Positions 601 to 62,738 of a stretch of 64,000 nt of DNA are shown piece after piece. The stretch covers positions 1 to 64,000 of the IMG/VR virus record IMGVR_UViG_3300033486_000001, one strand, 5' to 3'. The DNA is from a virus. Taxonomy: Duplodnaviria; Caudoviricetes. Within the stretch, counting starts at the first letter, position 1. Each line of letters starts with the position of its first letter. Position numbers and translations under genes: made by a program. The notes under the pieces were generated by a model. That model was not told the origin of the DNA. It saw only the letters and a list, made by a program, of their open reading frames with translations, and did not search any database.

Positions 601-601
601 T

Positions 602-44630: not shown

Positions 44631-45572
44631 CTAGTATACCACAAGCCATTCGAGAATCTTCTTGATGGTTCCAGCGCGATCTGCTTCGTACTCCGCCTCT
44701 GGGATTCTCAAGAGTTGAATGCCAGCTTCGGCGCATTGCTCGTTTTTACGTCGGTCTTTATCTTCGCTGCCCGGCAGTGAGTGCCAATATACCCCGTCGT
44801 ACTCAATGGCTTTTTTGAGAGATGGGATGTAGATGTCGAGTTCAAGACGTTTGTAGCGTAAAACGCTTCTGACTCCACTGACCGCATCCGTATATTTTTC
44901 TTTGATGTCACTGAAGATGGCTAACTCGGCCTTGGAGTGACGATGGGTGCAACGGGAACAACCTTGCGGCTTACCCGGCTTAGTCCTGTTATTCGGAGAC
45001 GAAAACCATACGTGCCCTTTCGAACAAATCCACTTTCGCTTTTCTTTGGCTCCATAGGGGGTGTCGCAGAACCTCTCTTCGTTGTCTGGATGCCACTCTT
45101 TCTCTAGATGGGGAGCTTTTGTCGCCAACGAATTCGCGGCGGAGACTCGATGTCCGCTACATTCCGGACAACCACTACGGCTCTTTCCAGCTCTAGTACA
45201 GGGGACTGCCCACCATACGTGCCCTTTAGAGCACACCCACTCTCGCTTGGGCCACGAAGCTCTGGCAAACACGCCATCAAACGGCTCTGTATTGTTCGGT
45301 CCCCATTCCGACCTAAGCCAAGGGGCTTTTGTCGCCAAAGAGCGTTCGATTGGTACGATCTTAAAACACTCGCTACATCCAGTGCCTCTGTCACGTCTAA
45401 TCCGTTTACGTACAGTTGCCTCCCATTTATGACCTAGAGGGCATATCCACAAACACTTCTCTTTGTAGACGAGTGTCACATCATCAAAACTGACAGTATT
45501 CTCCGGGCTCCACTCGGATCTCAAGTGGGGTGCCTTGATAGCCAACGAATTTGGTTTGCGGCCCGCCATCAC
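44631..45572 (-). CDS. Zinc-ribbon-repeat endonuclease (Vsr/EDxHD-like), putative homing endonuclease, paralog 1
   Basis: Three W.C..GH.W...C..C repeats plus ELDIYIPSLKKAIEYDGVYWH. Confidence 0.8.
   Translation of the reverse strand: MMAGRKPNSLAIKAPHLRSEWSPENTVSFDDVTLVYKEKCLWICPLGHKWEATVRKRIRRDRGTGCSECFKIVPIERSLATKAPWLRSEWGPNNTEPFDGVFARASWPKREWVCSKGHVWWAVPCTRAGKSRSGCPECSGHRVSAANSLATKAPHLEKEWHPDNEERFCDTPYGAKEKRKWICSKGHVWFSSPNNRTKPGKPQGCSRCTHRHSKAELAIFSDIKEKYTDAVSGVRSVLRYKRLELDIYIPSLKKAIEYDGVYWHSLPGSEDKDRRKNEQCAEAGIQLLRIPEAEYEADRAGTIKKILEWLVVY
44633..44642 (-). promoter_or_regulatory. Extended -10 GTGGTATACT upstream of the sigma gene
   Basis: Encoded by the last codons of the upstream endonuclease gene. 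Confidence 0.6.
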
Positions 45573-46154: not shown

Positions 46155-46550
46155 TCACTTGACCGACTCCTTGAATTCCTTCACGGTCATCTTGCCATAC
46201 CCACCCAAACGAATATACAATTTCGTGGCCAGCGCTGTGTTCGGATTGTCTAGCACGAGCTCACGGATGTACTTGAGCGGATCAGGAGCGAGAATGTCCA
46301 ATGCTTCTTCTGGTGAATGAACGTTGGCCGCTACGGCTTCTCGGATCCGAAATTGGGGATGCCGAGCCCACCTTAACAACTTTTCTGGATCTGTCGATGA
46401 ATCCACCGCCTCCACCGCCGCGACTTCATCTTCGTACAGATCCATCCATAAATTGACTGGAACTAATTGATAACGATACAAATAATCATTCTGAATGGTT
46501 TTGGGGAGCTTATCGAATCTGTAGGGTCTTGTGACTCTTGTGCCGCTCAT
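46155..46550 (-). CDS. LRV/HEAT-like repeat protein carrying the shared C-terminal motif
   Basis: STDPEKLL, IREAVAANVHSP, VLDNPNT; ends GYGKMTVKEFKESVK. Confidence 0.7.
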   Translation of the reverse strand: MSGTRVTRPYRFDKLPKTIQNDYLYRYQLVPVNLWMDLYEDEVAAVEAVDSSTDPEKLLRWARHPQFRIREAVAANVHSPEEALDILAPDPLKYIRELVLDNPNTALATKLYIRLGGYGKMTVKEFKESVK

Positions 46551-46780
46551 AGCTTCACCGTTTTCTCTGATGGGACTCTCCACTCCACCAAGCCGCCCCC
46601 GCTAGGAGCCCACCGAGATTCAATCAAGCCAGCCTTCATAGCCGCCACCAAGAATCTCCACATGCGCGCCTTAGTGGCAGGACGCCAAGGTTCGGTTTCG
46701 GCGAGAACCCATAGTTGCTCGTACGTCAACCAAGGGAGACCGGCCATCCATTTGATACGTATGTCGTTGGAGTTGATCAT
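46547..46780 (-). CDS. Hypothetical protein
   Basis: SD GGGAG; coupled to the next gene. Confidence 0.55.
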   Translation of the reverse strand: MINSNDIRIKWMAGLPWLTYEQLWVLAETEPWRPATKARMWRFLVAAMKAGLIESRWAPSGGGLVEWRVPSEKTVKL

Positions 46781-46814
46781 AGTTTACTCCCCTTGCCCGA
46801 GATCCGAGAAAACG

Positions 46815-47951
46815 TCAAGGGGTTTGTAGCCACTCCAAGATTTTCTTGATGGTGCCATCCCGGTCGGCTTCGTATTCGGCTTCTGGGATTCTGAGGAGCT
46901 GGATTCCGACTTCGATACACTGTTCATTTTTATGGAGATCTGCACCCACTTTGTCGGGTAGCGAGTGCCAATACGTCCCGTCATACTCTATGGCTTTACG
47001 AAGTGATGGCACGTAAATATCGAGCTCTAACCTTGTAGAGCGGAGTAGTCTACGTGCCCCATTGATTGTGTCGGGATACCTCTCTAAAACCAATTCGTAT
47101 ATGTCGAGTTCGGCCTTGGAGTGCTGTTTAGTACAACTTGGGCAGTTGCAACCCCTAGCTCTAGTTTTGGGAGACGTCTCCCATTCGTGTCCATAACGAC
47201 AAATCCACCAAACTTCAATGTCCATTCCAATCGACAAAGACTCGAAGCTTCGTGTATTTTTGGTGGGGTGAAATTCAGATCTTAAGTTTGGGAACAGTAC
47301 GGACAATGAGTTATTGTCTGTGACCCTCTTGCCGGTGCAAAAAGGACAACCGAGGCCCATTAAAGAGCGATGGTCGATGCTGTCGCTCCACGAATGGCCT
47401 TGGTCGCAAATCCACCAAACTTTCTTATTGGATGCAAAAGCTACTTGACTTGGAGAGAGTTTGTTTTTGGCCGAGTCCCATTGTATTGCGAGTCGAGGGT
47501 TTTTGGAACTGAGGGAGTTAAGATCCGATACGCGATTATGAGAACAGTAAGGGCACCCCTGCCCCAATGTTCTAGACGCCACTCTAGACTGCCACTCGTG
47601 TCCTAGTCGGCACATCCACCACACTTTTCTTCCAGAAGAAACCGTTAAAGACTCAAGTGGTGTCGAATTTTTAGGGGAGTATTCTCCCCGGAACTGAGGA
47701 AAAAGAACAGACAGAGAGTTCTTGTCGGTTACAAGTCGACCAGAACAATAGGGGCATCCGGTCGGATTTTTTGCTTTTGCTCTATTCTTTACAACAGACT
47801 CCCATTCATGTCCTTTACTACAGATCCACCAAGCCAGCCTCTCCGAGCCGGCGCTATAGAAAGAGAAAGGGAGCACATTCTTAGTAGGATGAAATTCTGC
47901 ACTCAACCAAGGAGCGACAGAGGATAATGAGTTTGTAGGTAATTTGTCCAT
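46815..47951 (-). CDS. Zinc-ribbon-repeat endonuclease, paralog 2
   Basis: Four WW.C..GH.W...CPYC repeats plus ELDIYVPSLRKAIEYDGTYWH. Confidence 0.8.
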   Translation of the reverse strand: MDKLPTNSLSSVAPWLSAEFHPTKNVLPFSFYSAGSERLAWWICSKGHEWESVVKNRAKAKNPTGCPYCSGRLVTDKNSLSVLFPQFRGEYSPKNSTPLESLTVSSGRKVWWMCRLGHEWQSRVASRTLGQGCPYCSHNRVSDLNSLSSKNPRLAIQWDSAKNKLSPSQVAFASNKKVWWICDQGHSWSDSIDHRSLMGLGCPFCTGKRVTDNNSLSVLFPNLRSEFHPTKNTRSFESLSIGMDIEVWWICRYGHEWETSPKTRARGCNCPSCTKQHSKAELDIYELVLERYPDTINGARRLLRSTRLELDIYVPSLRKAIEYDGTYWHSLPDKVGADLHKNEQCIEVGIQLLRIPEAEYEADRDGTIKKILEWLQTP

Positions 47952-47987
47952 ATCAAAACGCCTATCACTTACTCAATCTAAAGTCAA

Positions 47988-49472
47988 CTACATTTTGACG
48001 ATTTTCACCGGTCCATAAATGTCCTCAAAAATCCGCTTGCGAGCCAACGCGTGTGCGTGCACCGTACGGATGTTGGTCACGTCAAAGTCGATTATGTTGC
48101 AGGAAGTCTTGTTGAGAGGTTTGAAGGGGCGTGTGCAACGACCTACACCTTGGCGAACCTCCACTTCGGATTTGCCGCCTCGAAGGTAAAACATTGTCTT
48201 AACTGACTTGAAATCGGTGCCCGTCGCCACACACGATGTAGCCACAAGTATGGGGAATTCCGACGCATTAAATTGCTTGACAAGCAAATCGTTGTCACAC
48301 TCATGGTACTTTTCCGGGACTTTCGACTTGTTATCGGCCAGAGGCCCGTGAGCGAAACGGCATTCGTGCTGAAAATGCGGAAGCAACTCGGCAAACTGAG
48401 AGACCTCGTCAACCAGTATCAAAACCTGATGTCCTGACACAGCAACACTCTGGTTGGCAATGACTGCGGCGCGCTTGAAAACTTCTGGGTTGTAAAAGAA
48501 ATGCTTGCGGGTCATCTCGTTCGGATCGGCACTCTCAAACTCGACGTGTGACTGTACAGGAACCATGAAGAATACAGGTTTGGCGAGGTAGCCGCCGTCG
48601 ACACCTTGACGTACAGTCAGTTCCAGAACGGTATGTCCGGTGAGAGAATCTAGGAGTTTTCCAGATCCGTCCCCACGAATTTGCGTGGCACTGAAATTGA
48701 ATCGATAAGGCGCGTTCGCCATGACCCCAAGAGCTACATGACAGAAAGTCTGTGCAGCAATTGTATGCGACTCGTCTGTAATAAAAACCTCACACTTGGA
48801 AAGATCTTCCCATTCCTTCGAACCGACCTCAGCCCGAGTTAGAGACTGCCCAGTTCCGATTACGAACAACTTGTTGGACTCTTTTTTGCCTCCGTAGAAT
48901 TTCCCAACGTACTTCTTGCCAAAGTGCTTGACGAAGTCCTCGTAGAGTTGCCCGGAAATGCTGGCAGAAGGTGCCATGATGACTGTCTTAAGCCCTAATG
49001 CTTTTGCAAGAAGTAGTACAATGTACGACTTGCCCGTACCCGTAGCTAATTCAACCCTCGCGTGCTTCGCTTCCAACAGCCGATCTCGCGCTTCGATTTG
49101 GTACGGATATGGCGTCCGGTCTGGCACCACAGCCCACGGGATGTTTTTGGGTTCCGGGTAAACCACCTTGTTGGTTACCGTGCAGCCGTATTTCGATTTT
49201 AAGGCCTCTAGCAGCCCGCTGTTGACGTAATGACGTCCGGACCCATCTCGGCTTAGGAGGCACACCTTCTGACTCGCCTGAAGCTCAGCCAGGCGGCTTG
49301 CGTACGCTTCCGGTCCGAACTTGTTGGCGTACCACGTCGCGTGCTGGAACTTCTTGAGTTCAAAAGCCACTGAAGTGTCGGTGTATGTAAGTTCCTCTTG
49401 AAGGGACTTCAGCTCCGACGGAGTCGCGTCGTCGACGTACAGCTTCGTGGGGGTTTCTAGGGTCAGTTTCAT
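47988..49472 (-). CDS. SF2 DNA helicase (UvsW-like)
   Basis: PYPYQ, LATGTGKS, TDESH, FSAT, VATGTDF, RQGVGRCTR; start reassigned to 49472 (SD GGAGG, ATGA overlap). Confidence 0.88.
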   Translation of the reverse strand: MKLTLETPTKLYVDDATPSELKSLQEELTYTDTSVAFELKKFQHATWYANKFGPEAYASRLAELQASQKVCLLSRDGSGRHYVNSGLLEALKSKYGCTVTNKVVYPEPKNIPWAVVPDRTPYPYQIEARDRLLEAKHARVELATGTGKSYIVLLLAKALGLKTVIMAPSASISGQLYEDFVKHFGKKYVGKFYGGKKESNKLFVIGTGQSLTRAEVGSKEWEDLSKCEVFITDESHTIAAQTFCHVALGVMANAPYRFNFSATQIRGDGSGKLLDSLTGHTVLELTVRQGVDGGYLAKPVFFMVPVQSHVEFESADPNEMTRKHFFYNPEVFKRAAVIANQSVAVSGHQVLILVDEVSQFAELLPHFQHECRFAHGPLADNKSKVPEKYHECDNDLLVKQFNASEFPILVATSCVATGTDFKSVKTMFYLRGGKSEVEVRQGVGRCTRPFKPLNKTSCNIIDFDVTNIRTVHAHALARKRIFEDIYGPVKIVKM

Positions 49473-49741
49473 TGCATAGCCTCCACAAAGTCGCCGAACG
49501 TCATACCGCTGTGTTCCGAATAGGTAGCGATCCATACCTTGAGGACACTCTTGATGTCAAATCCTTGCCAATCCGGAGAGTTGAGGAGCTCAATAAACTC
49601 GGATTCTCTGTGGAGATCAAGGTTTTTAGCGTCTTCCGGTGTCATATCAAACAACCTCATAAAACAATGGCCGCTACAACACTTCGGAAGACTCTCGGCG
49701 TAAATAGCCAACGTGTTCGCCATATCGTAAAACGGGATCAT
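49469..49741 (-). CDS. Hypothetical protein carrying the shared C-terminal motif
   Basis: Ends LKVWIATYSEHSGMTFGDFVEAMQ. Confidence 0.6.
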   Translation of the reverse strand: MIPFYDMANTLAIYAESLPKCCSGHCFMRLFDMTPEDAKNLDLHRESEFIELLNSPDWQGFDIKSVLKVWIATYSEHSGMTFGDFVEAMQ

Positions 49742-50310
49742 AGCAATCCAAACGCGTAGTTCTGAACAGCCAAAAGGCGTTCAGCAGGGGAACCACACAA
49801 ATCGATGACCTTGAACGGCGGGAGGCTCGACAGGAGAGCTGGGATTTGCTGCTGCACCAGGTCGGACTGAGCTTGAGAGTGAATCCGGTTCGGATCGGCG
49901 ACGCCATTCCGTCGCACAATCGGAGCCGCCAAAAAAGTCGCCGAAGTGATTTTAAGGGACCTGCGGATGTACTCTTGCACCTCCGACGCCGTACGAGTCT
50001 TGGTACCCATGTACAACAGCGAATTGATGGGGCTGGAGTCCGAGATTACCAGAACATCGCAGCCGCAACTAGTCACGAGAGCCTCATCGACCTCGAGCTG
50101 CTGAACCATGATTTTGACCTGATCCTTGTCCGTGAGGGTTGGGAACTGATTTGGGGAAAGCTTAAGTTGCACTTTCTTGCGTGCGATGTAAAGCCTGGCT
50201 TGCTCAGAACTGAGCTCGCAGCCGATGCCAGTTTCCTTGAGGCTCGAAAAGAGCATCGCCGCAGTGGTGGTTTTGCCGGAGGCAGGACATCCGATGAAAT
50301 TGATGAGCAT
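49738..50310 (-). CDS. P-loop kinase/ATPase (NadR/AAA_28-like)
   Basis: INFIGCPASGKTT, ISDSSPINSLLY; start reassigned to ATG 50310. Confidence 0.75.
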   Translation of the reverse strand: MLINFIGCPASGKTTTAAMLFSSLKETGIGCELSSEQARLYIARKKVQLKLSPNQFPTLTDKDQVKIMVQQLEVDEALVTSCGCDVLVISDSSPINSLLYMGTKTRTASEVQEYIRRSLKITSATFLAAPIVRRNGVADPNRIHSQAQSDLVQQQIPALLSSLPPFKVIDLCGSPAERLLAVQNYAFGLL

Positions 50311-50316
50311 CCGACA

Positions 50317-50326
50317 ATGATACCAC
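50317..50326 (-). promoter_or_regulatory. Extended -10 GTGGTATCAT, 6 nt before ATG 50310
   Basis: GTGGTATCATTGTCGGATG versus GTGGTATAATAGTCGGATG at 10804 (17/19 identical). Confidence 0.6.
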
Positions 50327-50632
50327 GTCTTGAGGTAAAATCCAACCTGCTCGTTTAGAGGAACTTCGCTTGCTCTGAGGCTCTGAATCGTGTATTGAGG
50401 TTTCACGCGAATTCTTGTTGTATTTGAGACTCGTCTTCGTTGTCTTAAGGAACTGTTCAATGTCTTACATCATCCCACAATACGTCGGTCGGCTGTCGTC
50501 GGCTTTTCTGCGACGACGAAGTCGGTCGGCTTTTGTCGTGCCGTTGCTTTTCGACGAAGTCGGCTCAATCGCCGTCTTGACCGTCTTGTTCTCTTGTAGA
50601 AGTCTCTTGCTCTTCTAGGTAGTAGTGGTTAC

Positions 50633-50868
50633 CTGGTGACGTAATGGTGTTGCGCTGGTGACTACACTTCGTGTGTTGGTGTTGCGCTGGTGACGTAATG
50701 GTGTTGCGCTGGTGACGTAATGGTGTTGCGCTGGTGACTACATGTGTTGGTGTTGCGCTGGTGACTACACCCCATAACCATGCGATATTGCTATACTTTT
50801 GATGTCTTGTTTCCCCGGTGACGTAATGGTGTTGCGCTGGTGACTACACCCCATAACCATGCGATATT
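50633..50868. repeat. Iteron-like direct repeat array (candidate replication origin)
   Basis: GGTGTTGCGCTGGTGAC at 50646, 50678, 50700, 50722, 50749, 50828; the last two copies share the extension TACACCCCATAACCATGCGATATT. Confidence 0.9.
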
Positions 50869-50899
50869 ACTGGGTGGTTGTTGTGGGCTGATTTTGAAG

Positions 50900-50928
50900 T
50901 TGAAGTTCACAGTTAGATGATGTACAAT
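50900..50928 (+). promoter_or_regulatory. sigma70-type promoter TTGAAG-N17-TACAAT
   Basis: Points toward gene 51077. Confidence 0.55.
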
Positions 50929-50945
50929 GGAATAGTTGTTTGGTG

Positions 50946-51023
50946 GAAGTTTGCCGCCCTACTGCTGGTGTCCTTGTTCTCTTGTCCGGGGACTCTGGGT
51001 TGAACTTTAGGGCGGCAAACTTC
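50946..51023. repeat. Perfect 16-bp inverted repeat in the leader of gene 51077
   Basis: GAAGTTTGCCGCCCTA (50946-50961) / TAGGGCGGCAAACTTC (51008-51023). Confidence 0.9.
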
Positions 51024-51076
51024 TGCTTAACAATCGCCCGCTTCAACCGGGTGTCATTTAAGACAAGGGATTTAAA

Positions 51077-51967
51077 ATGTGTGAATCATCCTACAAAAAA
51101 TTCGACGACACCCTAAAGGAACTTGCTCCCGACGAAGAAGGTAAGCGCACGTTTCTTCCGTTGTTGCCAGAGCATATGCGGCTACAAGCCAGCCTTTATC
51201 CGGCGATTGCCGACTTTCTATTTTCTGTTTATGGGCAAATCGATGTAGGACAAGAATGTTCTAAGCCGGCGCGCTGGCTTGACGGTTATAATGCTGGTCG
51301 CTATACCAAGAAGCTCACTGATATGGGGTTGCTGGTCAAGCGCAACAGGAGATTGGTACTCCCACCGACCGACACGATGAAGTGGGTCCGGGTTCCCATC
51401 CGGTGGTTCAGGGATCCTTTGTGTGGAGTATCAACAACAGACATGCAACTTTTGCTGCATGTCATGCATTACACCATACCTGAAGTTGAACTAAGTCAAG
51501 CCCAATACGCCAAATGCATTAACGTCTCGAGATCCGCTATTACTCGGCGTCCTTCTGAGTTTTGGAAGCGCTACCGCGGAAACACTTATGTCGATAGTAA
51601 CGGTTTCAAAAGCACTGCGACGCGATTTAATGTCATCGAGATGATGGTTGGGATGAACACAGACAAGTACGTGACTCCAACTCCGGAGAACCCTAAGGTA
51701 ACGACCTACTTCGAACCTGAGAGGATTCGAACATTACAGCCGAGACCCAAGGCTCCTCAGCCTCCAGCCGAGCCAGTGTGCGACTGGGCGAGGTTAGCTA
51801 AAGAGTCGGACGATCCTGGGATTCTGCGCGAGTGTCTTAGAACTGAAAAGTTCGAGGTTATATCTGATCTTTATATGATCAGGGGTAAGAAACCCAAAGA
51901 GATTTGTTGTGAAATTGAAGCGGCATTCGCAAAATTGAACCAGAGGGGTTATCGATATGGCACATAA
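51077..51967 (+). CDS. Putative replication initiator / wHTH DNA-binding protein
   Basis: YTKKLTDMGLL wHTH-like segment; WVRVP...STTDMQLLL...LSQAQYAKCINVSRSAITR HTH; adjacent to the repeat array. Confidence 0.55.
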   Translation: MCESSYKKFDDTLKELAPDEEGKRTFLPLLPEHMRLQASLYPAIADFLFSVYGQIDVGQECSKPARWLDGYNAGRYTKKLTDMGLLVKRNRRLVLPPTDTMKWVRVPIRWFRDPLCGVSTTDMQLLLHVMHYTIPEVELSQAQYAKCINVSRSAITRRPSEFWKRYRGNTYVDSNGFKSTATRFNVIEMMVGMNTDKYVTPTPENPKVTTYFEPERIRTLQPRPKAPQPPAEPVCDWARLAKESDDPGILRECLRTEKFEVISDLYMIRGKKPKEICCEIEAAFAKLNQRGYRYGT

Positions 51968-53420
51968 TAAAGACACAGTCACGCGAGTCGACCGAAGAGG
52001 GTGGACAAACAAAGAAAGACCCCCTAAACCCGACCTGGCGGCCATCAGCCGTATGAAGGCTGAACAAGATCGCGCAAGGATCGAACAAATCAAACCCGCA
52101 GAGATCTCCCGTTCCGAGACTAAAATGGATAGTGGTTTTAGTCCCGTAGTTATTGATTCAAGTCACGACACCAAGAAGTGGACCTTCGAGCAATGGTCGC
52201 GCCAACTAGCCGAAGCGTCTCTCAAAGAGATTCCTACGAAGCGCGACATTCCGGTCGACACCGAGACCGTGTCTGCGATTTACGCGGCGATTGGCCGGCG
52301 TATGCAAAAGTATCTCAAGGACGGCTTGACGGGCATCTGGGCGAACCGACAAGAAACGTACGACAAGGTTGTCAGTATTTCAAACAAAGCGGCACAATGC
52401 GAGCGTTTGAGTCGGCGCCAGCTCTTTACATGGCTACCTGACGTTGTTGAATGCTTTTACGACGACGAAAGCGTCCATGATTTATTTGAAGAGATGGAAG
52501 AGGCCGGCGACAAAGGGCTTTCGGATGAAGCAATGGACGATTGGATTAACGATTCAACAATCAGGGCTGCCACCAAAGTTATGAGTGTCGTCCAAGAGGA
52601 CCTGTACGAAACCATCGACAACTTTTGGAGTTACATCTCGGGTTACACAGTCAAGCTGCCTGAAATTGAGCGTGCGGTTATGGCGTTTAAGTTTGGTGCT
52701 TCGAAGTGTGACGAATCCAACTTCCGAGAACTCGAGCTGAAAGGACTTGCAAAGTGTCTTGGTTCCATCAAGCCGGTAGATTACCGATGGGTCGAATCCA
52801 TCGAGGATTTTCGGTCGCGAGCTTGGGCGATCATCGAAGAGCGACGTCGCCAGCAAGAAGTCGAAATCGTTGCATCAAAGGCAGAAGCCGAGGCCCATAA
52901 AGTCATTCTGGTTCCATTGACGCCGCCCAAGGCTAGGCCTCTAGCGGAGATCCTGGCTGAGTTCCAGTCGTCCGTTGACTCTCATACGATTCCACCACCC
53001 GGTATTACGCCGGACGAGGTCTCAAAGTTGACCGATCCGACCAAACTCGAAGCGTGCTCGTACTCGACCGACCCAGACATCCTCATGGCCACATTCAATA
53101 ACAAGAAGACTCCATGGTCTGCTTGCGACCGGTGTATGGAGAACAAGACTGTCTTCGAATTCTTTTGCAAGCAAGCCGATGGGCGCGTACCAACATCTCC
53201 GGTTCAAGTCGAGCCCGAGAAGCCAAAAGTCTCGGACCTCGAAATCGCGGTGACATCGACTGATCCTTGTGAATTAGAGCGCGTCGCTGTTACAACAAAC
53301 GATCCGATTGTGAGGGTGGCCATCGTCGCCAACTGCAACGCGAGAAAAGACTTGAAAATGTGGTTGAAGGCGTGTAATAGTGGATTGCAGATGACCTTCA
53401 ACGAATTCACTGGAGAGTAA
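51957..53420 (+). CDS. Hypothetical protein with C-terminal LRV-like repeats and the shared C-terminal motif
   Basis: STDPDIL, STDPCELERVAVTTNDPIVRVAIVAN; ends LKMWLKACNSGLQMTFNEFTGE. Confidence 0.7.
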   Translation: MAHNKDTVTRVDRRGWTNKERPPKPDLAAISRMKAEQDRARIEQIKPAEISRSETKMDSGFSPVVIDSSHDTKKWTFEQWSRQLAEASLKEIPTKRDIPVDTETVSAIYAAIGRRMQKYLKDGLTGIWANRQETYDKVVSISNKAAQCERLSRRQLFTWLPDVVECFYDDESVHDLFEEMEEAGDKGLSDEAMDDWINDSTIRAATKVMSVVQEDLYETIDNFWSYISGYTVKLPEIERAVMAFKFGASKCDESNFRELELKGLAKCLGSIKPVDYRWVESIEDFRSRAWAIIEERRRQQEVEIVASKAEAEAHKVILVPLTPPKARPLAEILAEFQSSVDSHTIPPPGITPDEVSKLTDPTKLEACSYSTDPDILMATFNNKKTPWSACDRCMENKTVFEFFCKQADGRVPTSPVQVEPEKPKVSDLEIAVTSTDPCELERVAVTTNDPIVRVAIVANCNARKDLKMWLKACNSGLQMTFNEFTGE

Positions 53421-53423
53421 AAC

Positions 53424-53627
53424 ATGACACCAGAAGAGTTGGCGAAAGAGTTGGCGGAAGTCCGCGCGAAGTTTGCCGGCGGAGTTGGACTGAGTAAGGC
53501 GACTGACCGCGAGTTGTCATTGATTTTGAGTTGTCCGATTGAAGGCGACTTGATCTCCATGAAGTCCGCTGTCCATTGGCGCGACCTGTCAAAGAATGGC
53601 CCTTTCGACGTCGAGAAAAACAAGTGA
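53424..53627 (+). CDS. Hypothetical protein
   Basis: SD GGAG; GTGA overlap with the next gene. Confidence 0.6.
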   Translation: MTPEELAKELAEVRAKFAGGVGLSKATDRELSLILSCPIEGDLISMKSAVHWRDLSKNGPFDVEKNK

Positions 53628-54328
53628 CTAAATTAGAGCAAGCTAGCGATCCAAACACTCCTGCCGATGTGTTGATCGACATCATTAGTGACGCGCGAAG
53701 AGGCCCCCAATTTGGAGACTCTTGGGGTGCTAGTTCAATCGCGGCTCGCCACAGGAATCTACCAGCGAGTGTAGTGGAAGAAATAGCCAAGAATGGATGT
53801 AGCTCTATCAAATATGATGCTGCAATGAACCCGAATATGTCGCAGTCGGCGTTCGAACTCTTTGCACAAAACAAGTCTTTGTGGGGTAATTTGGTTTTGA
53901 ACCCGAGTACGCCATTACATTTTTTGATTAGAGTGGTTAGAGAGGGTTACTTAAGGGACTGGCAGCACTGCAATAATGCAGATATATGTAATGTCGCTCG
54001 CAGCCTTCGAGCACCTATTTCTATTTTGATGGAACTAGCTAAAGATCCTCATCCAATGGTGAGGGCGGACTTGACACAAAATCCCAACACCCCGGAATGG
54101 TTATTGTGGCAGTTGGCGGCAGATCAAGATGCCCAAGTAAGGTGCTACGTGTGTTACCGCCCAAATTTGCCGCTCAACCTCTATATTCAACTTGCCCAAA
54201 GAGAAGAAAATACGACGGTGCTGGAGTGGATGTCGGATAGCCCGCACACACCAATCAAGATGAAGGTGTGGCTACAGTCTTATCGCGACTCCATGTCTTT
54301 GGAGGAATTTTTGGAGGCAACCAAGTGA
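53624..54328 (+). CDS. LRV (leucine-rich repeat variant)/HEAT-like repeat protein
   Basis: DPNTP, LAKDPHPMVRADLTQNPNTP, LAADQDAQVR; start reassigned to GTG 53624. Confidence 0.8.
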   Translation: MTKLEQASDPNTPADVLIDIISDARRGPQFGDSWGASSIAARHRNLPASVVEEIAKNGCSSIKYDAAMNPNMSQSAFELFAQNKSLWGNLVLNPSTPLHFLIRVVREGYLRDWQHCNNADICNVARSLRAPISILMELAKDPHPMVRADLTQNPNTPEWLLWQLAADQDAQVRCYVCYRPNLPLNLYIQLAQREENTTVLEWMSDSPHTPIKMKVWLQSYRDSMSLEEFLEATK

Positions 54329-54597
54329 CTCAACTAGAGCAAGATCTTAAAGAATTGGAGCTCAATCCTTCACGGTTGAAGTGGGTTATACAGTGTGCTG
54401 GTCGGGCGGATCGAGATTGCATCGCTCGATACACTACCGATCTTCAGGTTCTAGAAATACTCGCTCGAGATAAGGATGGTCAAGTGCGTGGTTCTGTAGC
54501 AGCGAACATCAATACCCCACCTCCCATTAAAGCGTGGCTGACGTCTGGGTATCGTGAAACCATGTCGTTGGAAGAATTTTTGGAGGTTACAAAGTGA
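54325..54597 (+). CDS. LRV repeat protein
   Basis: LARDKDGQVRGSVAANINTP; GTG 54325 with SD GGAGG. Confidence 0.75.
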   Translation: MTQLEQDLKELELNPSRLKWVIQCAGRADRDCIARYTTDLQVLEILARDKDGQVRGSVAANINTPPPIKAWLTSGYRETMSLEEFLEVTK

Positions 54598-54905
54598 CCT
54601 CCTTGGGGCAAGCCAGACACCAGGACACTTCAGTGGAGGAGCTGGAGTCACTCTCATGGCACATAAATTGTAATGTTCGTATTGCTGTAGCTGGGAATTG
54701 CCGGACCCCCACCAAAGCTCTTGTGCAACTAGCTAGAAGTTCTTTCTCTCCAATGCCACATCGCGCGTTGAGAGAGGCTCTTCGGGATCTTCGTTCGGCG
54801 TTGATTTGTAACCCCAACACCCCTCTGGGCGTCAAGATGTGGTTGTTGGATGGTTATAGTGGCATGTCTTTGGAGGATTTTTTGGAGGCGACCAATGCCG
54901 ACTAA
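54594..54905 (+). CDS. LRV repeat protein
   Basis: VRIAVAGNCRTP, LICNPNTP. Confidence 0.75.
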   Translation: MTSLGQARHQDTSVEELESLSWHINCNVRIAVAGNCRTPTKALVQLARSSFSPMPHRALREALRDLRSALICNPNTPLGVKMWLLDGYSGMSLEDFLEATNAD

Positions 54906-54981
54906 TATGTTGATTATTGTAGGGGTTGTGGTGATGTTGGCGGTAGTCACGGAGTTTTGGCGCAGGAGGAGCTTGACGTAG
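54895..54981 (+). CDS. 28-aa membrane peptide (not in the ORF track)
   Basis: MPTNMLIIVGVVVMLAVVTEFWRRRSLT*; SD GGAGG. Confidence 0.5.
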   Translation: MPTNMLIIVGVVVMLAVVTEFWRRRSLT

Positions 54982-55020
54982 AGGTGGGGTTATGGTAGGA
55001 GTTGGGAGAAAGGAGTACTT

Positions 55021-56148
55021 ATGGATCTCAAACCGAATTCATTGACTATTAAGGCGCCGCACTTGAGATCCGAGTGGAGTTCGGAGAATACCGTCAATTT
55101 TGACGATGTGTCGTATGGTTCACAAACCAAATACAAGTGGGTGTGCGTAAACGGACACAAATGGGAGGCGTCTCCTAACAGGAGAACTGACAAGGGGCGG
55201 CGAGGGTGTTCGCGGTGCCCTAGGAACTCTTTGGCTGAGAAAGCTTCGCAGATGGCTTGCGAGTGGCATTCAGACAATCCTAAGAGGTTCCATGAGGTGT
55301 CATTCGGGTCTGTCGTGAAGTACAAGTGGATATGCGTCAAATGCCAGCACATATGGGTCGCGTCCCCCAACAGCAGGACTCACCTCAAGAGACCAACCGG
55401 ATGTCCCGAGTGCTTTAAGAGAGTTACTGATGCTAACTCACTAGCGACGAAAGCACCCCACTTGAAGCTTGAGTGGCATTCGAGTAACTCCAAACAATTC
55501 CACGAAGTCCATTGTGGATCCAATGATTTGTACATGTGGATATGCCGACTTGGGCATACCTGGACCACGACACCGAACCATCGAACAAAGGTCGGCAGGA
55601 AAAGTGGATGTCCGGACTGCGCTCACAGACGTGTTTCAGAACTCAACTCCTTAGCGACAAAAGCTCCGTGGTTGGAAAAAGAGTGGCACTTTAGCAACAA
55701 AAAGAAGTTCCATGAGGTGGCGTACGCTTCACCCACTAAATACACGTGGATTTGCGCCAAAGGACATACCTGGGACGCACAGTGTGGTAGCCGGACACGC
55801 AAGAACTCTACTGGATGCCCAGAGTGTCATTGTTCGACTTCAAGGGCTGAGCAAGCCATTTTTTGTGTCGTTAAGGAAAAATATCAAGATGCCGTCAACA
55901 AAACACGTGGTTTGCTTCGCTCCAAAACACTCGAACTCGATATTTACATTCCATCGCTCAAGAAGGCGATTGAATACGATGGGACCTATTGGCACTCGTT
56001 CCCTGGAGCTATAGAGCGGGATGTCAGAAAAAATCAGCAGTGTATCGAGGTCGGAATTCAGCTCCTCAGAGTTTCCGATCAAGAGTATGAAGCGGATCGC
56101 GAAGGTACTGTCGCCAAGGTTCTTGCTTGGCTTGAGGGCAATCTTTGA
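55021..56148 (+). CDS. Zinc-ribbon-repeat endonuclease, paralog 3
   Basis: Four W.C..GH.W...C..C repeats plus ELDIYIPSLKKAIEYDGTYWH; SD AAGGAG. Confidence 0.8.
   Translation: MDLKPNSLTIKAPHLRSEWSSENTVNFDDVSYGSQTKYKWVCVNGHKWEASPNRRTDKGRRGCSRCPRNSLAEKASQMACEWHSDNPKRFHEVSFGSVVKYKWICVKCQHIWVASPNSRTHLKRPTGCPECFKRVTDANSLATKAPHLKLEWHSSNSKQFHEVHCGSNDLYMWICRLGHTWTTTPNHRTKVGRKSGCPDCAHRRVSELNSLATKAPWLEKEWHFSNKKKFHEVAYASPTKYTWICAKGHTWDAQCGSRTRKNSTGCPECHCSTSRAEQAIFCVVKEKYQDAVNKTRGLLRSKTLELDIYIPSLKKAIEYDGTYWHSFPGAIERDVRKNQQCIEVGIQLLRVSDQEYEADREGTVAKVLAWLEGNL
56140..56145 (+). promoter_or_regulatory. Candidate late promoter AATCTT, 6 nt before the TerL ATG
   Basis: Conserved motif and spacing. Confidence 0.6.
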
Positions 56149-56151
56149 TGC

Positions 56152-58038
56152 ATGCCCTATTCCGAACACGAAATGCGCCGCATGCTCTTTACGGTCTGTT
56201 CAACCAAAGAGCACTTGTCCAGGTGGGTGCAAACTTTTTTGGGGTTGGACTTCCCCAGTTCAATCGTATTGGAAGAGTCGAACAGCTCCCCTATGGACGC
56301 ACTGTGGTTGTTGTATAGCAAAGCTATCTCAAACGACGATGAGAATTTCGCTCGTTGTATGAGCTATGCAGCCCGCGGGTCATTTAAGACCCTCTCTGCG
56401 TCAGTTCTCGAAGTGGCCTTGGCTCTACATACACCCCGCAACATAGCCCATCTAGCTGCGACCACTGATCAATCGGGAAAGGCTCAGCAGTACGTGAGGG
56501 GGTTCTTCAGCAAGCCCTACCTTTGCGATTTCCGCCAAGGACAGAACATCAAGCGCATCGACATATGTCGATTTAGCAATGACCGAGGAATTCACCTCTC
56601 CGAAAAAGAGTGGCAAATCCTAGATGACTCGGAAAAGCGATTTTTCGAGCGACACGACAACTACATACAAATCATTACACTCACCCTACAAGGTGCGAAT
56701 AGTGCACACACAGAACTACTTGTAGTAGACGAAGTCGATACCGTGCCAGTGCAAAACCGTGGAGCCTACGAAGAGGCTAAGTCGATTCCTGACCCGCGCA
56801 ACGGCCTAAACCCTATCACTCTACTGACTTCGACCCGTAAGTTCTCATATGGACTTGTCCAGAAAGAGCTCGATGAGGCGGCCAAGACAGGGCTAAGGGC
56901 GTACCACTGGACCGCCGTGGATGTCGTACAAGCGTGTGAGCCTGAGCGACACCACCCGGAACTACCAAAGGTGCAGCTTTACGTCAATGACGCTGAGTTG
57001 ACCACCGTAAACGAAGAGGCTTACTCCAAATTCGATGCGGCGATGCAAGAGAAGTTCACTAAGCATGAAGGGTTCGGCGGTTGCGCGGCATGCTCGCTGT
57101 TTTCGGTATGTAAGTCTCGGCTAGCCACACATCAAGCCTCGAAATCCCCGTTGCTGAAGCCGATCCCGTGGCTGCGCAACCGCATGAAGGAGTTTTCCAC
57201 CTCGATGGCCCTGACGCAGCTTATGTGTCGTCAGCCAGATTCCACTGGTTTGATTTACCCAAAGCTTGACCGAGCCATCCACGTCAAGACTGCCTCGGAA
57301 ATCGCCCAGATGGTTACCGGGAGGACTTGTCCACCTGGGATGGACAAAGGCACGCTTTTGAGGATCTTGGTGGACCGCGGGTGTAAGTTTTACACGGGCA
57401 TGGACTTCGGCTTCACACACCCTTTTTCTTGTGTCACCATGGCCGTGTGGGGGCAAAACGCATTTGTTGTGGACTGTGTCTCCCGATCTGGACTGGAGTT
57501 GGATGACAAAGTAGCAGTATGCGAACACCTACGTGTACTGAATCCTACGATTCACGCCGACACCGAGGCCCCGGCGGATATTGAAACGTTCAAGCGACGC
57601 GGTTTTCAAATGCGCGGCGCCATCAAAGGTCGTGGTAGCGTCAAGTCCGGCATAGAAATCGTACGGATGAAGATGCAGCCAGCCCTCGGCTCCCCGACGT
57701 TGTTCTTTTTGAGCGGAGATCCGGACGTGGAGTTCGCATTCCAGCAGCTCAAAATGTACCACTTTATCACCGACGAAGCCGGCAACATCGCAGACGAGCC
57801 AGAAAAAGTCGACGATGACTCATGTGACGCGTTGCGTTACGGTATCGTAGGTACTTTCGCACCCAATCACAAAATCGGCCTACCGCAAAACCCGAACAAT
57901 CCAGCACCTTCGGAATACCAAGCCGCTCCGGGTCGCCCCCAGTGGATGAATGACCACATCGCCAAACTATTAGACGGTGGAGACCTTTCTTCATCGAACA
58001 AACCGGTCAAGAAGGGGAATTTTCACTTTCAGCAATAA
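56152..58038 (+). CDS. Terminase large subunit
   Basis: AARGSFKT, LVVDEVD, nuclease motifs GMDFGFTHP and DDDSCDALRY. Confidence 0.9.
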   Translation: MPYSEHEMRRMLFTVCSTKEHLSRWVQTFLGLDFPSSIVLEESNSSPMDALWLLYSKAISNDDENFARCMSYAARGSFKTLSASVLEVALALHTPRNIAHLAATTDQSGKAQQYVRGFFSKPYLCDFRQGQNIKRIDICRFSNDRGIHLSEKEWQILDDSEKRFFERHDNYIQIITLTLQGANSAHTELLVVDEVDTVPVQNRGAYEEAKSIPDPRNGLNPITLLTSTRKFSYGLVQKELDEAAKTGLRAYHWTAVDVVQACEPERHHPELPKVQLYVNDAELTTVNEEAYSKFDAAMQEKFTKHEGFGGCAACSLFSVCKSRLATHQASKSPLLKPIPWLRNRMKEFSTSMALTQLMCRQPDSTGLIYPKLDRAIHVKTASEIAQMVTGRTCPPGMDKGTLLRILVDRGCKFYTGMDFGFTHPFSCVTMAVWGQNAFVVDCVSRSGLELDDKVAVCEHLRVLNPTIHADTEAPADIETFKRRGFQMRGAIKGRGSVKSGIEIVRMKMQPALGSPTLFFLSGDPDVEFAFQQLKMYHFITDEAGNIADEPEKVDDDSCDALRYGIVGTFAPNHKIGLPQNPNNPAPSEYQAAPGRPQWMNDHIAKLLDGGDLSSSNKPVKKGNFHFQQ

Positions 58039-58068
58039 GCGCTTGACAATCCCAACACTCCGGATGAG

Positions 58069-58296
58069 GTGTTTGTCGCGGCGTGCAACGATGAGGACTG
58101 GAGGGTCCGTTGTCGTGCCGCCAAGAAGGCTAGATCGGTCGACATTTTACTCAAATTAGCCGAAGATGAGGACGAGAGTGTTCTTGAGGAAGTATACGGG
58201 CACAAGAACTGTCCTCCTGCTGTCAGAATGTGGTTGACCACCGAATACGGATATAGTATGTCTCTAAAGGAATTCCTGGATGCGATGAAGTCGTAA
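58069..58296 (+). CDS. LRV repeat protein (reading frame is open back to the TerL stop)
   Basis: DEDWRVRCRAA, LAEDEDESV; ends RMWLTTEYGYSMSLKEFLDAMKS. Confidence 0.65.
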   Translation: MFVAACNDEDWRVRCRAAKKARSVDILLKLAEDEDESVLEEVYGHKNCPPAVRMWLTTEYGYSMSLKEFLDAMKS

Positions 58297-58338: not shown

Positions 58339-59319
58339 ATGGATGCATTCTTAAACACGACCTTTCAAATTCAGGCTTACGCCGACCGTCCGGCCAACTC
58401 CAATCCGCGTCTGCGTGCGGTTGATTGGCGCCGGGATCTCTCCGGCCAAGCCGTATCTAACCCCAAGTCTGAATCCGTACAGCTTGTAGCCGGGGAAACT
58501 CGTACGCTCTTCAATGGACTTCGTACGACGACCTTGGACGGCACCACGGCGTTTACGATGTCGCTGTCGACTCTCGAGTCCGGCCGCTACCGCTTCACCA
58601 AAGTCGCTGGAACTGACCCGAGTCTTCGCCCCAGCCGAGGGCTTACGCTCAATACAGTTGCTGTCACTGCCGTGGCGTTGGCCAACGGTTCGCTGACAAT
58701 GACTGTACCCGGACCAGCCGCTTTCACCGGTGTCGTGGCTGGTGACATCGTGTTTGTCCCCAACACCAATACCGGTGACGCCGCCAACGTTTTCTCGATC
58801 TCTAATAGCGGATATTGGGTTGTGATGGCGGTGCTGTCTCCGCAGTCCCTGAGTCTCACCCGCCTCCCCGGCGCTTCCTTCGAGGGTGTGAGCGAAGTCG
58901 TAACGTTGACGTCTAATGCGCAACTCCGAGCTTATTCTGCAGCCGGAGTGCAAGTCGATGACTCGGTGTCGATTTCGGCTGGATTCGCCACGGCCACGCA
59001 AAAGACATACGATGTAGTGGCCGTCACAGACACCTTCTTTGAAGTGCGCAGTTCACTCCCGCTCCCCCTTGAGTCGTCCGTCATCCCGACCGCGGTCGGC
59101 CTGGTGTTCTACTCCAGCGCGAAGAATTTCTTGTACGTTGAAGGCGACCAAGAGTTTGTAATCCGCCTCAACGGCTCTACGGACTCGACACAGCGAGTCT
59201 CACCGGTGTCGGCCGGAGAAATCCCCGGAGCATATTTCAAGAACGGTCCGACTTGGTCGCTGGCTGTAGTTAATATGTCTTCCACGTTGCTCAATTTGAT
59301 GGTAATCGGAGCCGAATGA
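58339..59319 (+). CDS. Virion structural protein
   Basis: Beta-rich Thr/Val/Ser composition; between TerL and portal; start reassigned to 58339. Confidence 0.6.
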   Translation: MDAFLNTTFQIQAYADRPANSNPRLRAVDWRRDLSGQAVSNPKSESVQLVAGETRTLFNGLRTTTLDGTTAFTMSLSTLESGRYRFTKVAGTDPSLRPSRGLTLNTVAVTAVALANGSLTMTVPGPAAFTGVVAGDIVFVPNTNTGDAANVFSISNSGYWVVMAVLSPQSLSLTRLPGASFEGVSEVVTLTSNAQLRAYSAAGVQVDDSVSISAGFATATQKTYDVVAVTDTFFEVRSSLPLPLESSVIPTAVGLVFYSSAKNFLYVEGDQEFVIRLNGSTDSTQRVSPVSAGEIPGAYFKNGPTWSLAVVNMSSTLLNLMVIGAE

Positions 59320-62300: not shown

Positions 62301-62738
62301 GATGAGTATTGGTTCCGACAGGTTGACGTCCTTAATCAGAAGCAGCAACTCGAACAGCAGACCCAGATGCAAGCCCAACAAGCGGCTCAAGGTGCTCAAC
62401 AATCCGGAAATTCCGGACAGTTGCCACAAGGCTCTACAGTCCCCCAAGGCGACCAACAGCCTGCACCCCAGCAAGATGCCAACCAATCCCAGAACGCGCC
62501 ACAGCAAGCTCCACAGCCCCAGCAAGACCCGAACCAACCCGACCTCTCTACCGGAATTGACCAGCTCGCAGGGATTTTGAACAAGTCTGAGAGCCAACTC
62601 CCCGTCTCGAAGCGGCACCTGTTGGCGCAGCAACGATTGTTTATCTCGCACGCCATGTCGGCGCTAGAAGAAGAGTCGAAACTAGCCATCAAAGAAATTT
62701 CGGGAATCGCCAAACAGCACATTGCGCCGACCAAGTAG
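59316..62738 (+). CDS. Portal protein interrupted by an intein
   Basis: Portal-like RPIDAGTI, HNFYP, YPLTPLD, FQYL; Gln-rich C-terminal tail; follows TerL. Confidence 0.85.
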   Translation: MMKTTISDLLAPAITVPVKAKRTYAIEAVDKTPNDNAYEALNKSLMSLDGEKDQPVQRLAFEIDPVTGQSVYASLYRPKQKGLSDIILKRLSVQASIVASITNARGNHVSAFGRPQPDRFSTGFKIKPNPKHVEKLSQEEKEELQHRIGKAEKLMLTCGKKSDGDSTKDLSFSQFLFMTTRNALIFGRVAVEAIPDGEDKFHSFRPIDAGTIYFSTAQKEAADNVRRQAQNLLARLKNEAPQNFIDSKGRNVDELFGSDEYAWVQVINDIPRQFFTAKECLVHNFYPVTDIEQVGYPLTPLDTVVSDVTTFINITTHNRLFFQSGRASRGAVVLQSDDIDDIDLQHIRQQFQANINGVGNSWRTPMFKVGKDDKVDWFSIDSNARDQEFQYLSDSNARTILSGFQVSPEEISGYGHLSRGTNSQALSECFDPSSYLWTNTGLRTAESILGDEQETPLQIWTGSDWQNARLFRTGEKELVETHVNGYSIKTSPDHRFRVLSESGELIWKKQQELCTGDLLVMNAKPVPGAPELIPSFRGQKLTVEMVELLGWMTGDGSLVGPRKRIGGYLKLFYHPVREREIWDRHAQLLSDFGFNVKHHERQISEEEVEKIKAQRGFASVASSRITNTVYDTEFVGWLHGLGCGYSHEGKTIPPIFHVLPVEYRQAFLRGLFSADGHTPQGGAVVLTIQDDRTREQARQMLLGLGIRTLGCDGILRESLGQGKVFSHKLFIKDRNLFWEQIGFIQPHKIARRTPQKFARGFVPVSLASKLLAPVIESAIFAGWDKKTKDNIRGCAGAYSAPRHITWRQLRLVLEQALGAAPSWLTDYHLEPVTDLIAHQSKMLMVDVEVFDSRHAQILQGFQVHNSNNEYVLEAHRDTGIRPLLWQMQTFINDRIFPLIDAELAKICTFEFVGLDAETAEKETTRLQTDATVHMTYDQILQKVEKKPLGAKWGGTFPLNPAFQQILDRYMTVGQILEGFFGVAGAGKDPRLDYCRDEYWFRQVDVLNQKQQLEQQTQMQAQQAAQGAQQSGNSGQLPQGSTVPQGDQQPAPQQDANQSQNAPQQAPQPQQDPNQPDLSTGIDQLAGILNKSESQLPVSKRHLLAQQRLFISHAMSALEEESKLAIKEISGIAKQHIAPTK
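60600..61910 (+). mobile_element. Intein with a LAGLIDADG homing endonuclease (437 aa)
   Basis: Starts CFDPSS; block B TSPDHRF; LLGWMTGDGS and FLRGLFSADG; ends VHN followed by Ser+1. Confidence 0.92.

What the first reader, a model, noticed from the sequence alone, without database searches (positions are those of the whole stretch)
46155..58296. Seven proteins share a ~20-aa C-terminal module, mostly behind LRV/HEAT-like repeats
Seen C-termini: TKLYIRLGGYGKMTVKEFKESVK (46155), LKVWIATYSEHSGMTFGDFVEAMQ (49469), LKMWLKACNSGLQMTFNEFTGE (51957), MKVWLQSYRDSMSLEEFLEATK (53624), IKAWLTSGYRETMSLEEFLEVTK (54325), VKMWLLDGYSGMSLEDFLEATNAD (54594), VRMWLTTEYGYSMSLKEFLDAMKS (58069). Consensus is K.W(L/I)...Y..M(S/T)(L/F).(E/D)F.E. 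The N-termini vary from 1-6 LRV repeats to unrelated domains. Inference: a portable docking or oligomerisation tag that delivers variable binders to a common partner, for example an anti-defence or adaptor repertoire. I do not recognise this as a described system.
Basis: partly seen in the sequence, partly recalled or inferred. Interest (0 to 1): 0.72.

Follow-up and report, generated by a model that had tools for sequence, protein, structure and literature searches.

The report
Shared C-terminal tag on phage proteins
A large uncultivated phage, distantly related to Myxococcus phage Mx1, carries many small and fast-changing genes whose proteins all end in the same ~26-residue two-helix module; the module is real, portable and undescribed, but what it binds is still unknown.

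Summary
All seven ORFs end in the motif. An eighth lies just outside the window, and nine more lie on a 45-kb contig that overlaps this contig's left end at 100% DNA identity. The 75-kb record is a fragment of a ~164-kb phage; its large terminase is 39.6% identical to that of Myxococcus phage Mx1.

The tail is a discrete peptide module with the pattern PPxVKxWLxSGYxxxM(S/T)LxEF(L/I)xA. A tail-only HMM separates about 47 carriers (21-64 bits, always at the C-terminal end) from all other LRV proteins (1.4 bits or less). Codons vary synonymously, so selection acts on the peptide.

A confident AlphaFold2 model shows a last LRV-type helix, a turn and an extra terminal helix. The tail also follows N-termini with no LRV match (HTH-like, Trp-rich), occurs doubled in tandem, and is the best-conserved part of the paralogues.

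The genes sit in tandem cassettes whose content differs between phages that are 90-100% identical in core genes.

The tail was not found in Mx1, about 50,700 deposited phages, 185,579 prokaryote species genomes, Pfam, PHROGs, NCBIfam or PDB sequences.

Best reading (about 50%): a shared protein-interaction handle, for pairing or docking, on a diversifying accessory repertoire. No partner was identified. A plain structural cap remains a serious rival. This scan has not reported the motif on other DNA.

The parts
46155..46583 (-). Tail-bearing gene: 142 aa as listed, probably 131 aa from the ATG at 46550, which overlaps the upstream gene's stop by 4 nt. It has one LRV repeat plus a divergent tail (..KLYIRLGGYGKMTVKEFKESVK) at 46158-46235.
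   Evidence: ORF. Pfam LRV 21.9 bits against a cutoff of 21.6. Broad tail HMM 33.3 bits. The orthologue is 91% identical in L004. Orthologues with the same divergent tail form occur in the 103-kb and 164-kb relatives.
49469..49741 (-). Tail-bearing gene of 90 aa with no Pfam match in its N-terminal part. The divergent tail (..KVWIATYSEHSGMTFGDFVEAMQ) is at 49472-49552. Its last codons carry a GGAGG and an ATGA overlap that starts the helicase gene.
   Evidence: 32.9 bits; coupled start. The orthologue is 98% identical in L004, and orthologues P0127, P0268 and P0273 occur on other contigs.
51957..53420 (+). Tail-bearing gene of 487 aa: a large N-terminal region with no family match, then the most divergent tail (..KMWLKACNSGLQMTFNEFTGE) at 53343-53417.
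   Evidence: no family. Broad tail HMM 25.3 bits. The orthologue is 90% identical in L004 and 68% identical in the 103-kb relative, tail and rest alike.
53424..53627 (+). Conserved 67-aa gene without a tail, lying inside the array. It marks the upstream border of the hypervariable cassette slot.
   Evidence: 95.5% identical in L004. No tail-HMM hit. No Pfam or PHROGs match.
53624..54328 (+). Tail-bearing gene of 234 aa (GTG start overlapping the stop of the 67-aa gene): several LRV/HEAT-like repeats plus a canonical tail at 54248-54325.
   Evidence: Pfam LRV_2 29.2 bits (cutoff 27) and LRV 23.9 bits. It is only 41-48% identical to three paralogues occupying the same slot in L004, while flanking genes are 90-95% identical. 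Tail identity is 58-78% against 40-47% for the rest of the protein.
54325..54597 (+). Tail-bearing gene of 90 aa (GTG start inside AAGTGA): a short LRV-type solenoid plus a canonical tail at 54517-54594. This is the modelled member.
   Evidence: AF2 with 23-sequence alignment A2: mean pLDDT 85.8, tail blocks 92 or higher, helices at 66-73, 76-79 and 82-89. 1LRV is the top structural match, Z 5.0, over model residues 7-79 only. The orthologue is 94% identical in L004.
54594..54905 (+). Tail-bearing gene of 103 aa with LRV repeats plus a canonical tail at 54822-54902. There is no orthologue at this position in the close relatives.
   Evidence: Pfam LRV 24.2 bits. L002 and L004 have a 233/253-aa paralogue in this position instead.
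58069..58296 (+). Tail-bearing gene of 75 aa (HEAT/LRV-like plus a canonical tail at 58213-58293), inserted between the large terminase gene and the next conserved virion-module gene.
   Evidence: The slot is empty in Mx1, in L002 and in L004 (41-nt gap). In the 164-kb relative it holds a 243-nt tRNA-like spacer. This tail has no SD and no coupled start, yet it is fully canonical.

Best explanation
The seven ORFs belong to a phage-specific multigene family. An eighth member lies at genome 75016-75282, and at least nine more lie on the contig that dovetails with this one.

The family is defined by a 26-30-residue C-terminal module: a helix (PPxVKxWL), a tight turn (xSGYxxx), then a terminal capped helix (M-S/T-L-x-E/D-F-L/I-x-A). 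A few variable residues follow.

Shown:
- The module is a discrete unit under peptide-level selection.
- It is the best-conserved part of the paralogues.
- It is attached to LRV arrays of different length and to N-termini with no LRV match.
- The genes lie in tandem, translationally coupled cassettes that are gained, lost and replaced between otherwise near-identical phages of a ~160-kb lineage distantly related to Mx1.

Inferred: the module is a common protein-protein interaction handle. It works either by pairing with another copy (homo- or hetero-oligomerisation) or by docking on one shared phage or host partner. The diversifying N-terminal parts are then the specificity elements of an accessory repertoire for host takeover or counter-defence.

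In roughly 45% of genes, the few residues after the EF(L/I) helix are additionally shaped by an embedded Shine-Dalgarno sequence and an overlapping start codon for the next gene.
For: - **Discreteness:** a tail-only HMM gives 21-64 bits for about 47 proteins, always 0-12 residues from the end. All other fetched LRV proteins score 1.4 bits or less. In the scan of 1.84 billion proteins, long LRV proteins matched only the repeat part (profile positions 1-23), while small proteins matched positions 1-45 at their C-terminus.
- **Peptide-level selection:** codons vary synonymously.
- **Portability:** the tail follows an HTH-like N-terminus (several HTH families, all below Pfam cutoffs), four Trp-rich paralogues with no Pfam hit, and a protein with a weak sub-threshold Zn-ribbon hit. 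There is one clear tandem double tail and one internal copy in L009.
- **Conservation gradient:** 53% mean pairwise identity in the tail, 35% in the preceding repeat and 23% in the N-terminal region. In the 234-aa paralogue group it is 58-78% against 40-47%.
- **Turnover:**
- **Many copies per genome:** 8 in this record, 9 on the dovetailing contig, and 11 in a 103-kb relative rated 64% complete.
- **Structure:** the tail is confidently folded, and its last helix lies outside the part that superposes on 1LRV.
Against: - No partner was identified, and no oligomer prediction could be run.
- The conserved positions are mostly hydrophobic or helix-capping residues, as expected for a purely structural element.
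- In LRV members the model places the tail as the closing repeat of the solenoid.
- In stable orthologues (the 142-aa and 487-aa types) the tail is no more conserved than the rest of the protein.
- The genes are scattered over replication-module and virion-module operons, which is not typical of a single early counter-defence class.
- The non-LRV nature of some N-termini rests on negative Pfam results and visual inspection only.
Confidence: 0.5

Rival explanations
1. The tail is only a structural cap. It is the specialised last repeat and closing helix of a phage LRV subfamily, shielding the solenoid's hydrophobic core and having no partner. The members with no LRV match would then be decayed or recombined descendants that kept the stable hairpin.
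For: The AF2 model has pLDDT of 92 or more for the tail as a monomer. The first tail helix and the turn superpose on 1LRV repeats. The conserved residues are P, W, L, Y, M, L, F and L plus an S/T-x-x-E capping box. Most carriers have Pfam LRV, LRV_2 or HEAT hits.
Against: Long bacterial LRV proteins do not end this way. The tail is kept on proteins whose N-terminal part has no LRV match, is duplicated in tandem, and is more conserved than the repeats it would cap.
Confidence: 0.3
2. It is a virion-targeting tag. The tail would direct a variable set of small proteins into the capsid or onto a virion component for delivery with the DNA, as the capsid-targeting sequence does for T4 internal proteins.
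For: A short shared terminal tag on otherwise diverse small proteins in a hyperplastic locus resembles the T4 internal-protein locus (own knowledge). One array lies directly upstream of the large terminase gene, one member lies between the terminase and portal-module genes, and another array abuts large structural genes.
Against: The tag is C-terminal and no protease site is evident. Other members sit in the replication module next to the helicase and sigma factor genes. The Dam-linked array looks like an early operon of small genes. There are no proteomic data.
Confidence: 0.08
3. The conservation is at nucleic-acid level. The tail-coding DNA would serve as a translational-coupling cassette (SD plus overlapping start) and/or as a homology patch for cassette shuffling, with the peptide a by-product.
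For: 17 of 39 tail genes have GGAG or GAGG 4-10 nt before a start codon at or near their stop. The SD sits in the L-E-A codons of one flavour and the Q-E codons of another. Cassettes differ between close relatives exactly at tail boundaries.
Against: Synonymous variation runs throughout the tail. 22 of 39 tails lack the SD-and-start arrangement, including the canonical 58069 gene. The SD covers only the last 3-4 codons and not the W..GY..M-L-EF core. The peptide motif is kept across flavours encoded by different DNA.
Confidence: 0.07

Closest known systems
Leucine-rich repeat variant (LRV) proteins: Pfam PF01816 and PF25591; Azotobacter vinelandii LRV structure 1LRV
   Same: Most carriers contain the NPNTP-type 24-residue repeats. 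Pfam LRV or LRV_2 is above cutoff in three of the seven window proteins. 1LRV is the top structural match of the model. Small LRV proteins are common in uncultured Caudovirales.
   Different: The terminal W..GY..M(S/T)LxEF module is not covered by either Pfam model and is absent from all other LRV proteins fetched. These are small phage proteins in multi-copy hypervariable arrays, and some carriers have no LRV repeats at all.
Poxvirus ankyrin-repeat proteins with a C-terminal PRANC / F-box-like domain (own knowledge)
   Same: The architecture and genomics are alike: many paralogues per viral genome, variable alpha-solenoid binder repeats, and one short conserved helical module at the extreme C-terminus. 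In poxviruses that module docks every paralogue onto one host machine.
   Different: There is no sequence or Pfam similarity. Bacteria have no SCF ubiquitin ligase, and no docking partner is known here. This is an analogy for how the system might work, not membership.
Phage T4 internal proteins sharing the capsid-targeting sequence (own knowledge)
   Same: A short shared terminal tag on otherwise unrelated small proteins, encoded in a locus that differs between closely related phages.
   Different: The T4 tag is N-terminal, about 10 residues long, and is removed by the prohead protease. Here the tag is C-terminal, about 26 residues, predicted to be folded, and shows no evidence of cleavage or packaging.

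Membership tests
LRV repeat family (PF01816 / PF25591) | One or more ~24-residue NPNTP-type repeats scoring above the Pfam gathering cutoff | tested here: inconclusive
   Above cutoff in the 46155 gene (21.9 against 21.6), the 53624 gene (LRV_2 29.2 against 27; LRV 23.9) and the 54594 gene (24.2). Below cutoff in the 54325 gene (12.3). The 58069 gene has only HEAT at 23.1 against 23.5. The 49469 and 51957 genes have no hit.
LRV repeat family (PF01816 / PF25591) | Right-handed solenoid of alternating helices, as in 1LRV | tested here: met
   For the modelled 90-aa member, 1LRV_A ranks first of 48,161 chains: Z 5.0, rmsd 3.4 A, 62 residues, model residues 7-79. The Z score is low in absolute terms. 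The terminal helix (82-89) is not covered.
Poxvirus-type PRANC / F-box C-terminal docking domain | Sequence match to F-box or PRANC profiles | tested here: not met
   No F-box or PRANC hit at E of 1 or less in any of the seven proteins. No PDB sequence match to the tail profile.
Poxvirus-type PRANC / F-box C-terminal docking domain | Binding of the tail to one common cellular adaptor | not testable with these tools
   No multimer prediction or interaction data are available.
T4-type capsid-targeting sequence proteins | N-terminal tag removed by the prohead protease, and presence in virions | tested here: not met
   The tag is C-terminal in 39 of the tail ORFs held. Cleavage and packaging cannot be tested here.

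The most novel reading that the evidence does not exclude
The tail is a docking tag that plugs a rapidly diversifying set of binder proteins (LRV arrays, an HTH, small Trp-rich domains) into one shared machine, for example a host protease or a phage enzyme. That would be a bacteriophage counterpart of the poxvirus ANK-PRANC adaptor repertoire. The per-genome tail 'flavours' would reflect co-evolution with that partner.
Probability: 0.2. Interest if true: 0.8.

Novelty: new variant of a known kind. Interest (0 to 1): 0.55.

Why it matters
If the tail is an interaction handle, it marks a whole class of phage accessory proteins, roughly 10-20 per genome in this ~160-kb lineage. The handle could then be used to fish out the machine they converge on, and a simple HMM would recognise such repertoires in metagenomes. 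It would also be a rare bacterial-virus example of the architecture 'variable repeat binder plus constant docking tail' known from large eukaryotic viruses. If it is only a cap, the finding still defines an undescribed, phage-restricted LRV subfamily and two hypervariable cassette loci in relatives of Myxococcus phage Mx1.

Tried and rejected
- **Family libraries:** PHROGs, NCBIfam and Pfam give no family for the tail or for the N-termini with no LRV match.
- **Structure libraries:** the PDB sequence profile search gave only chance-level hits, best E 0.099. Foldseek against PDB and BFVD found nothing at E of 0.001 or less; the viral top hits are generic phage LRV proteins.
- **Folding:** the single-sequence AF2 model of the 234-aa member was poor (pLDDT 52) and was not used.
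- **ESM Atlas:** only generic LRV clusters for the 90-aa member, and nothing for the 487-aa member.
- **Deposited phages:** megablast of the region gave no match. tblastn of two tail proteins found only LRV-part or chance hits. Mx1 scanned whole gave 0 matches.
- **Prokaryote species genomes:** 123 pattern matches, none confirmed.
- **Fusions to large annotated proteins:** none found. This is weak evidence, because the word index limits the search.
- **A shared phage-encoded partner:** comparison of gene content between this genome and L007/L009 instead showed that L007 is the same phage or lineage and L009 a distant relative. No independent co-occurring gene could be nominated.
- **Promoters and terminators:** the sigma-70 promoter and terminator scan of the array showed no enrichment over shuffles.
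- **Literature:** no paper linking LRV proteins of phages to a C-terminal motif was found.
Full report
**Setting.** The window is the first 64 kb of a 75,316-bp virus record. It encodes a large terminase (56152-58038) that is 39.6% identical over 98% of its length to that of Myxococcus phage Mx1. It also shares the Mx1 core order of helicase, sigma factor, phosphoesterase, TerL, a ~335-aa protein and portal.

The record is incomplete. Bases 1-955 are 100% identical, in dovetail orientation, to the end of a 45-kb ENA contig (L007). A syntenic relative is 164 kb long (L017), and a 103-kb IMG/VR relative is rated 64% complete. The lineage therefore has a genome of about 160 kb, like Mx1 (169.6 kb). 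One caveat: some genes are also 100% identical between this record and a ~92% relative. L007 is therefore the same phage or a very near one, and strain identity is not proven.

**Observation.** A pattern written from them hits only these seven in six frames of the window, each 3-7 residues from a stop. In the whole record it hits eight, against 0.01 expected in residue shuffles. The pattern was written after seeing the tails, so that figure is only indicative. The eighth copy (genome 75016-75282) has an HTH-like N-terminus; several HTH families hit it, all below cutoff.

Codons differ synonymously along the tail, so the peptide is what is conserved. Several genes are chained by AAGTGA or AAATGA overlaps, which moves three start codons to 46550, 53624 and 54325.

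**The tail is a discrete module.** A profile of the last 45 residues was run against 1.84 billion representative proteins and gave two kinds of hit. Long LRV-repeat proteins matched only the repeat part (profile positions 1-23). About 30 of the top 150 were small proteins (47-227 aa) matching positions 1-45 at their very end.

A tail-only HMM applied to all 260 fetched proteins is bimodal. About 47 proteins score 21-64 bits, always 0-12 residues from the C-terminus, and every other LRV protein scores 1.4 bits or less. Two main flavours exist..WLxSGYxxSM(S/T)LEEFLEATK and ..WLKxGG(Y/F)AGMTLAEF(I/L)xATQETP, along with minor ones.

The three divergent window tails (46155, 49469, 51957) score poorly on the canonical HMM but reach 25-33 bits on a broader one. 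Each keeps its own form in orthologues of relatives.

**Structure.** With a 23-sequence alignment, AlphaFold2 models the 90-aa member at mean pLDDT 85.8, with the tail blocks at 92 or higher. The tail forms helix 66-73 (PPIKAWLT), a short helix at 76-79 and a terminal helix at 82-89.

The structural search that does not depend on Foldseek ranks the A. vinelandii LRV protein 1LRV first (Z 5.0, rmsd 3.4 A, 62 residues). The alignment covers model residues 7-79 only. So the first tail helix and the turn follow LRV geometry, and the last helix is an addition. The Z score is weak in absolute terms, and Foldseek found nothing significant.

**Portability.** On L007, nine ORFs within 4 kb end in the tail. 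Four of them (96-104 aa, ending ..EFLTSLGVIE) have Trp-rich N-termini with no Pfam match that look beta-rich by eye. A fifth (95 aa) also has no LRV match.

On L009, a distant relative sharing two genes at 48% and 68% identity, at least six ORFs carry the tail. One has two tails in tandem, one has a partial second tail, and one tail is followed by 48 further residues.

No fusion to a large annotated domain was found. That is weak evidence, because the search depends on shared words.

**Evolution.** Between this phage and its 73.6-kb relative L004, core genes are 90-100% identical, and four tail genes have orthologues at 90-98%. The slot between the conserved 67-aa gene and TerL behaves differently:
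- The window holds members of 234, 90 and 103 aa there, while L004 holds 238, 227, 90 and 233 aa.
- The ~235-aa paralogues are only 41-48% identical to one another.
- The 75-aa gene after TerL is unique to the window. That slot is empty in Mx1, L002 and L004, and holds a tRNA-like spacer in L017.

A second variable array lies next to a Dam gene, divergent from large structural genes. It differs between L007 and L016.

Among paralogues the tail is the best-conserved part: 53% mean pairwise identity against 35% and 23% further upstream, and 58-78% against 40-47% in the 234-aa group. In the stable orthologues the tail is no more conserved than the rest of the protein.

**Distribution.** Tails occur on IMG/VR, ENA, JGI and Logan contigs that look like phage. 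These contigs have dense small genes, Dam, dCMP deaminase, DNA ligase, AAA_33 and metallophosphatase, and many are relatives of this phage. One 103-kb relative has 11 copies.

None was found in Mx1, in 50,697 deposited phage records or in 185,579 prokaryote species genomes. No Pfam, PHROGs, NCBIfam or PDB sequence entry covers the tail, and the paper searches found no description.

**A nucleic-acid contribution.** Tested here, 17 of 39 tail genes have GGAG or GAGG 4-10 nt before a start codon at or next to their stop. The SD lies in the L-E-A codons of one flavour and in the Q-E codons of another.

This explains why the few residues after the EF(L/I) helix are conserved within a flavour. It does not explain the W..GY..M-L-EF core. 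It also does not account for the 22 tails without such coupling, which include the canonical 58069 gene.

**Mechanism.** What is shown: this is a discrete, folded, peptide-selected, portable C-terminal module on a multi-copy accessory family that turns over quickly.

What is inferred: the module is a shared interaction handle. I commit to that reading at about 50%, for three reasons.
- A pure cap should not persist on N-termini that have no LRV match.
- A pure cap should not be duplicated in tandem. A double hairpin is what an intramolecular version of a tail-tail pair would look like.
- A pure cap should not out-conserve the repeats it caps.

Pairing would also suit the HTH-bearing member, since small HTH proteins usually need a dimerisation element (own knowledge). 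Whether the handle pairs with itself or docks on a common partner cannot be decided here.

The structural-cap reading (about 30%) remains serious. The conserved positions are mostly core or capping residues, and the monomer model is confident. Virion targeting and a purely nucleic-acid role are each below 10%. An anti-defence role is plausible from the genomic behaviour, but nothing tested here supports it.

**Verdict.** The module is undescribed. Its portability is supported, but its docking function is not demonstrated.

Noticed in passing
window 1-955 and L007:1-955: The 75.3-kb record is not a complete genome. Its left end dovetails at 100% DNA identity with a 45-kb ENA contig, a syntenic relative is 164 kb long, and a 103-kb relative is rated 64% complete.
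   Followed up: partly
window 44631-45572 (-), 46815-47951 (-), 55021-56148 (+): Three paralogous genes combine a DUF4379 treble-clef zinc-finger array with an MTES_1575-type nuclease. Two of them are absent at the same positions in the close relative L004. There, TerL carries a LAGLIDADG intein, whereas the window has a free-standing nuclease just upstream of an intein-less TerL. This behaviour resembles homing endonucleases.
   Followed up: partly
window 59316-62738 (+): The portal gene is 1140 aa. Its orthologues in L004 and L017 carry Pfam Intein_splicing and LAGLIDADG_3 hits, so it appears to contain an intein.
   Followed up: no
L017:1743-1985: In the 164-kb relative, the slot after TerL that holds the 75-aa tail gene in the window contains instead a 243-nt non-coding stretch with a tRNA-like T-arm sequence.
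   Followed up: no
L007:14182-14715: A 177-aa ORF made almost entirely of tandem NLTGDVSGLTG-type repeats lies downstream of the Dam-linked tail array.
   Followed up: no
window 37421-39166 (-): A 581-aa ORF lies at the position where L017 has a 581-aa gene with a Pfam Cpn60_TCP1 hit, suggesting a phage-encoded GroEL-like chaperonin. The window ORF itself was not scanned.
   Followed up: no
genome 70885-72009 (-), outside the window; L010:712-1440: The 374-aa ORF that another note of this scan calls TnpB is 82% identical to an ORF on an otherwise dissimilar tail-carrying contig (L010). This suggests that mobile genes are shared among co-occurring phages.
   Followed up: no
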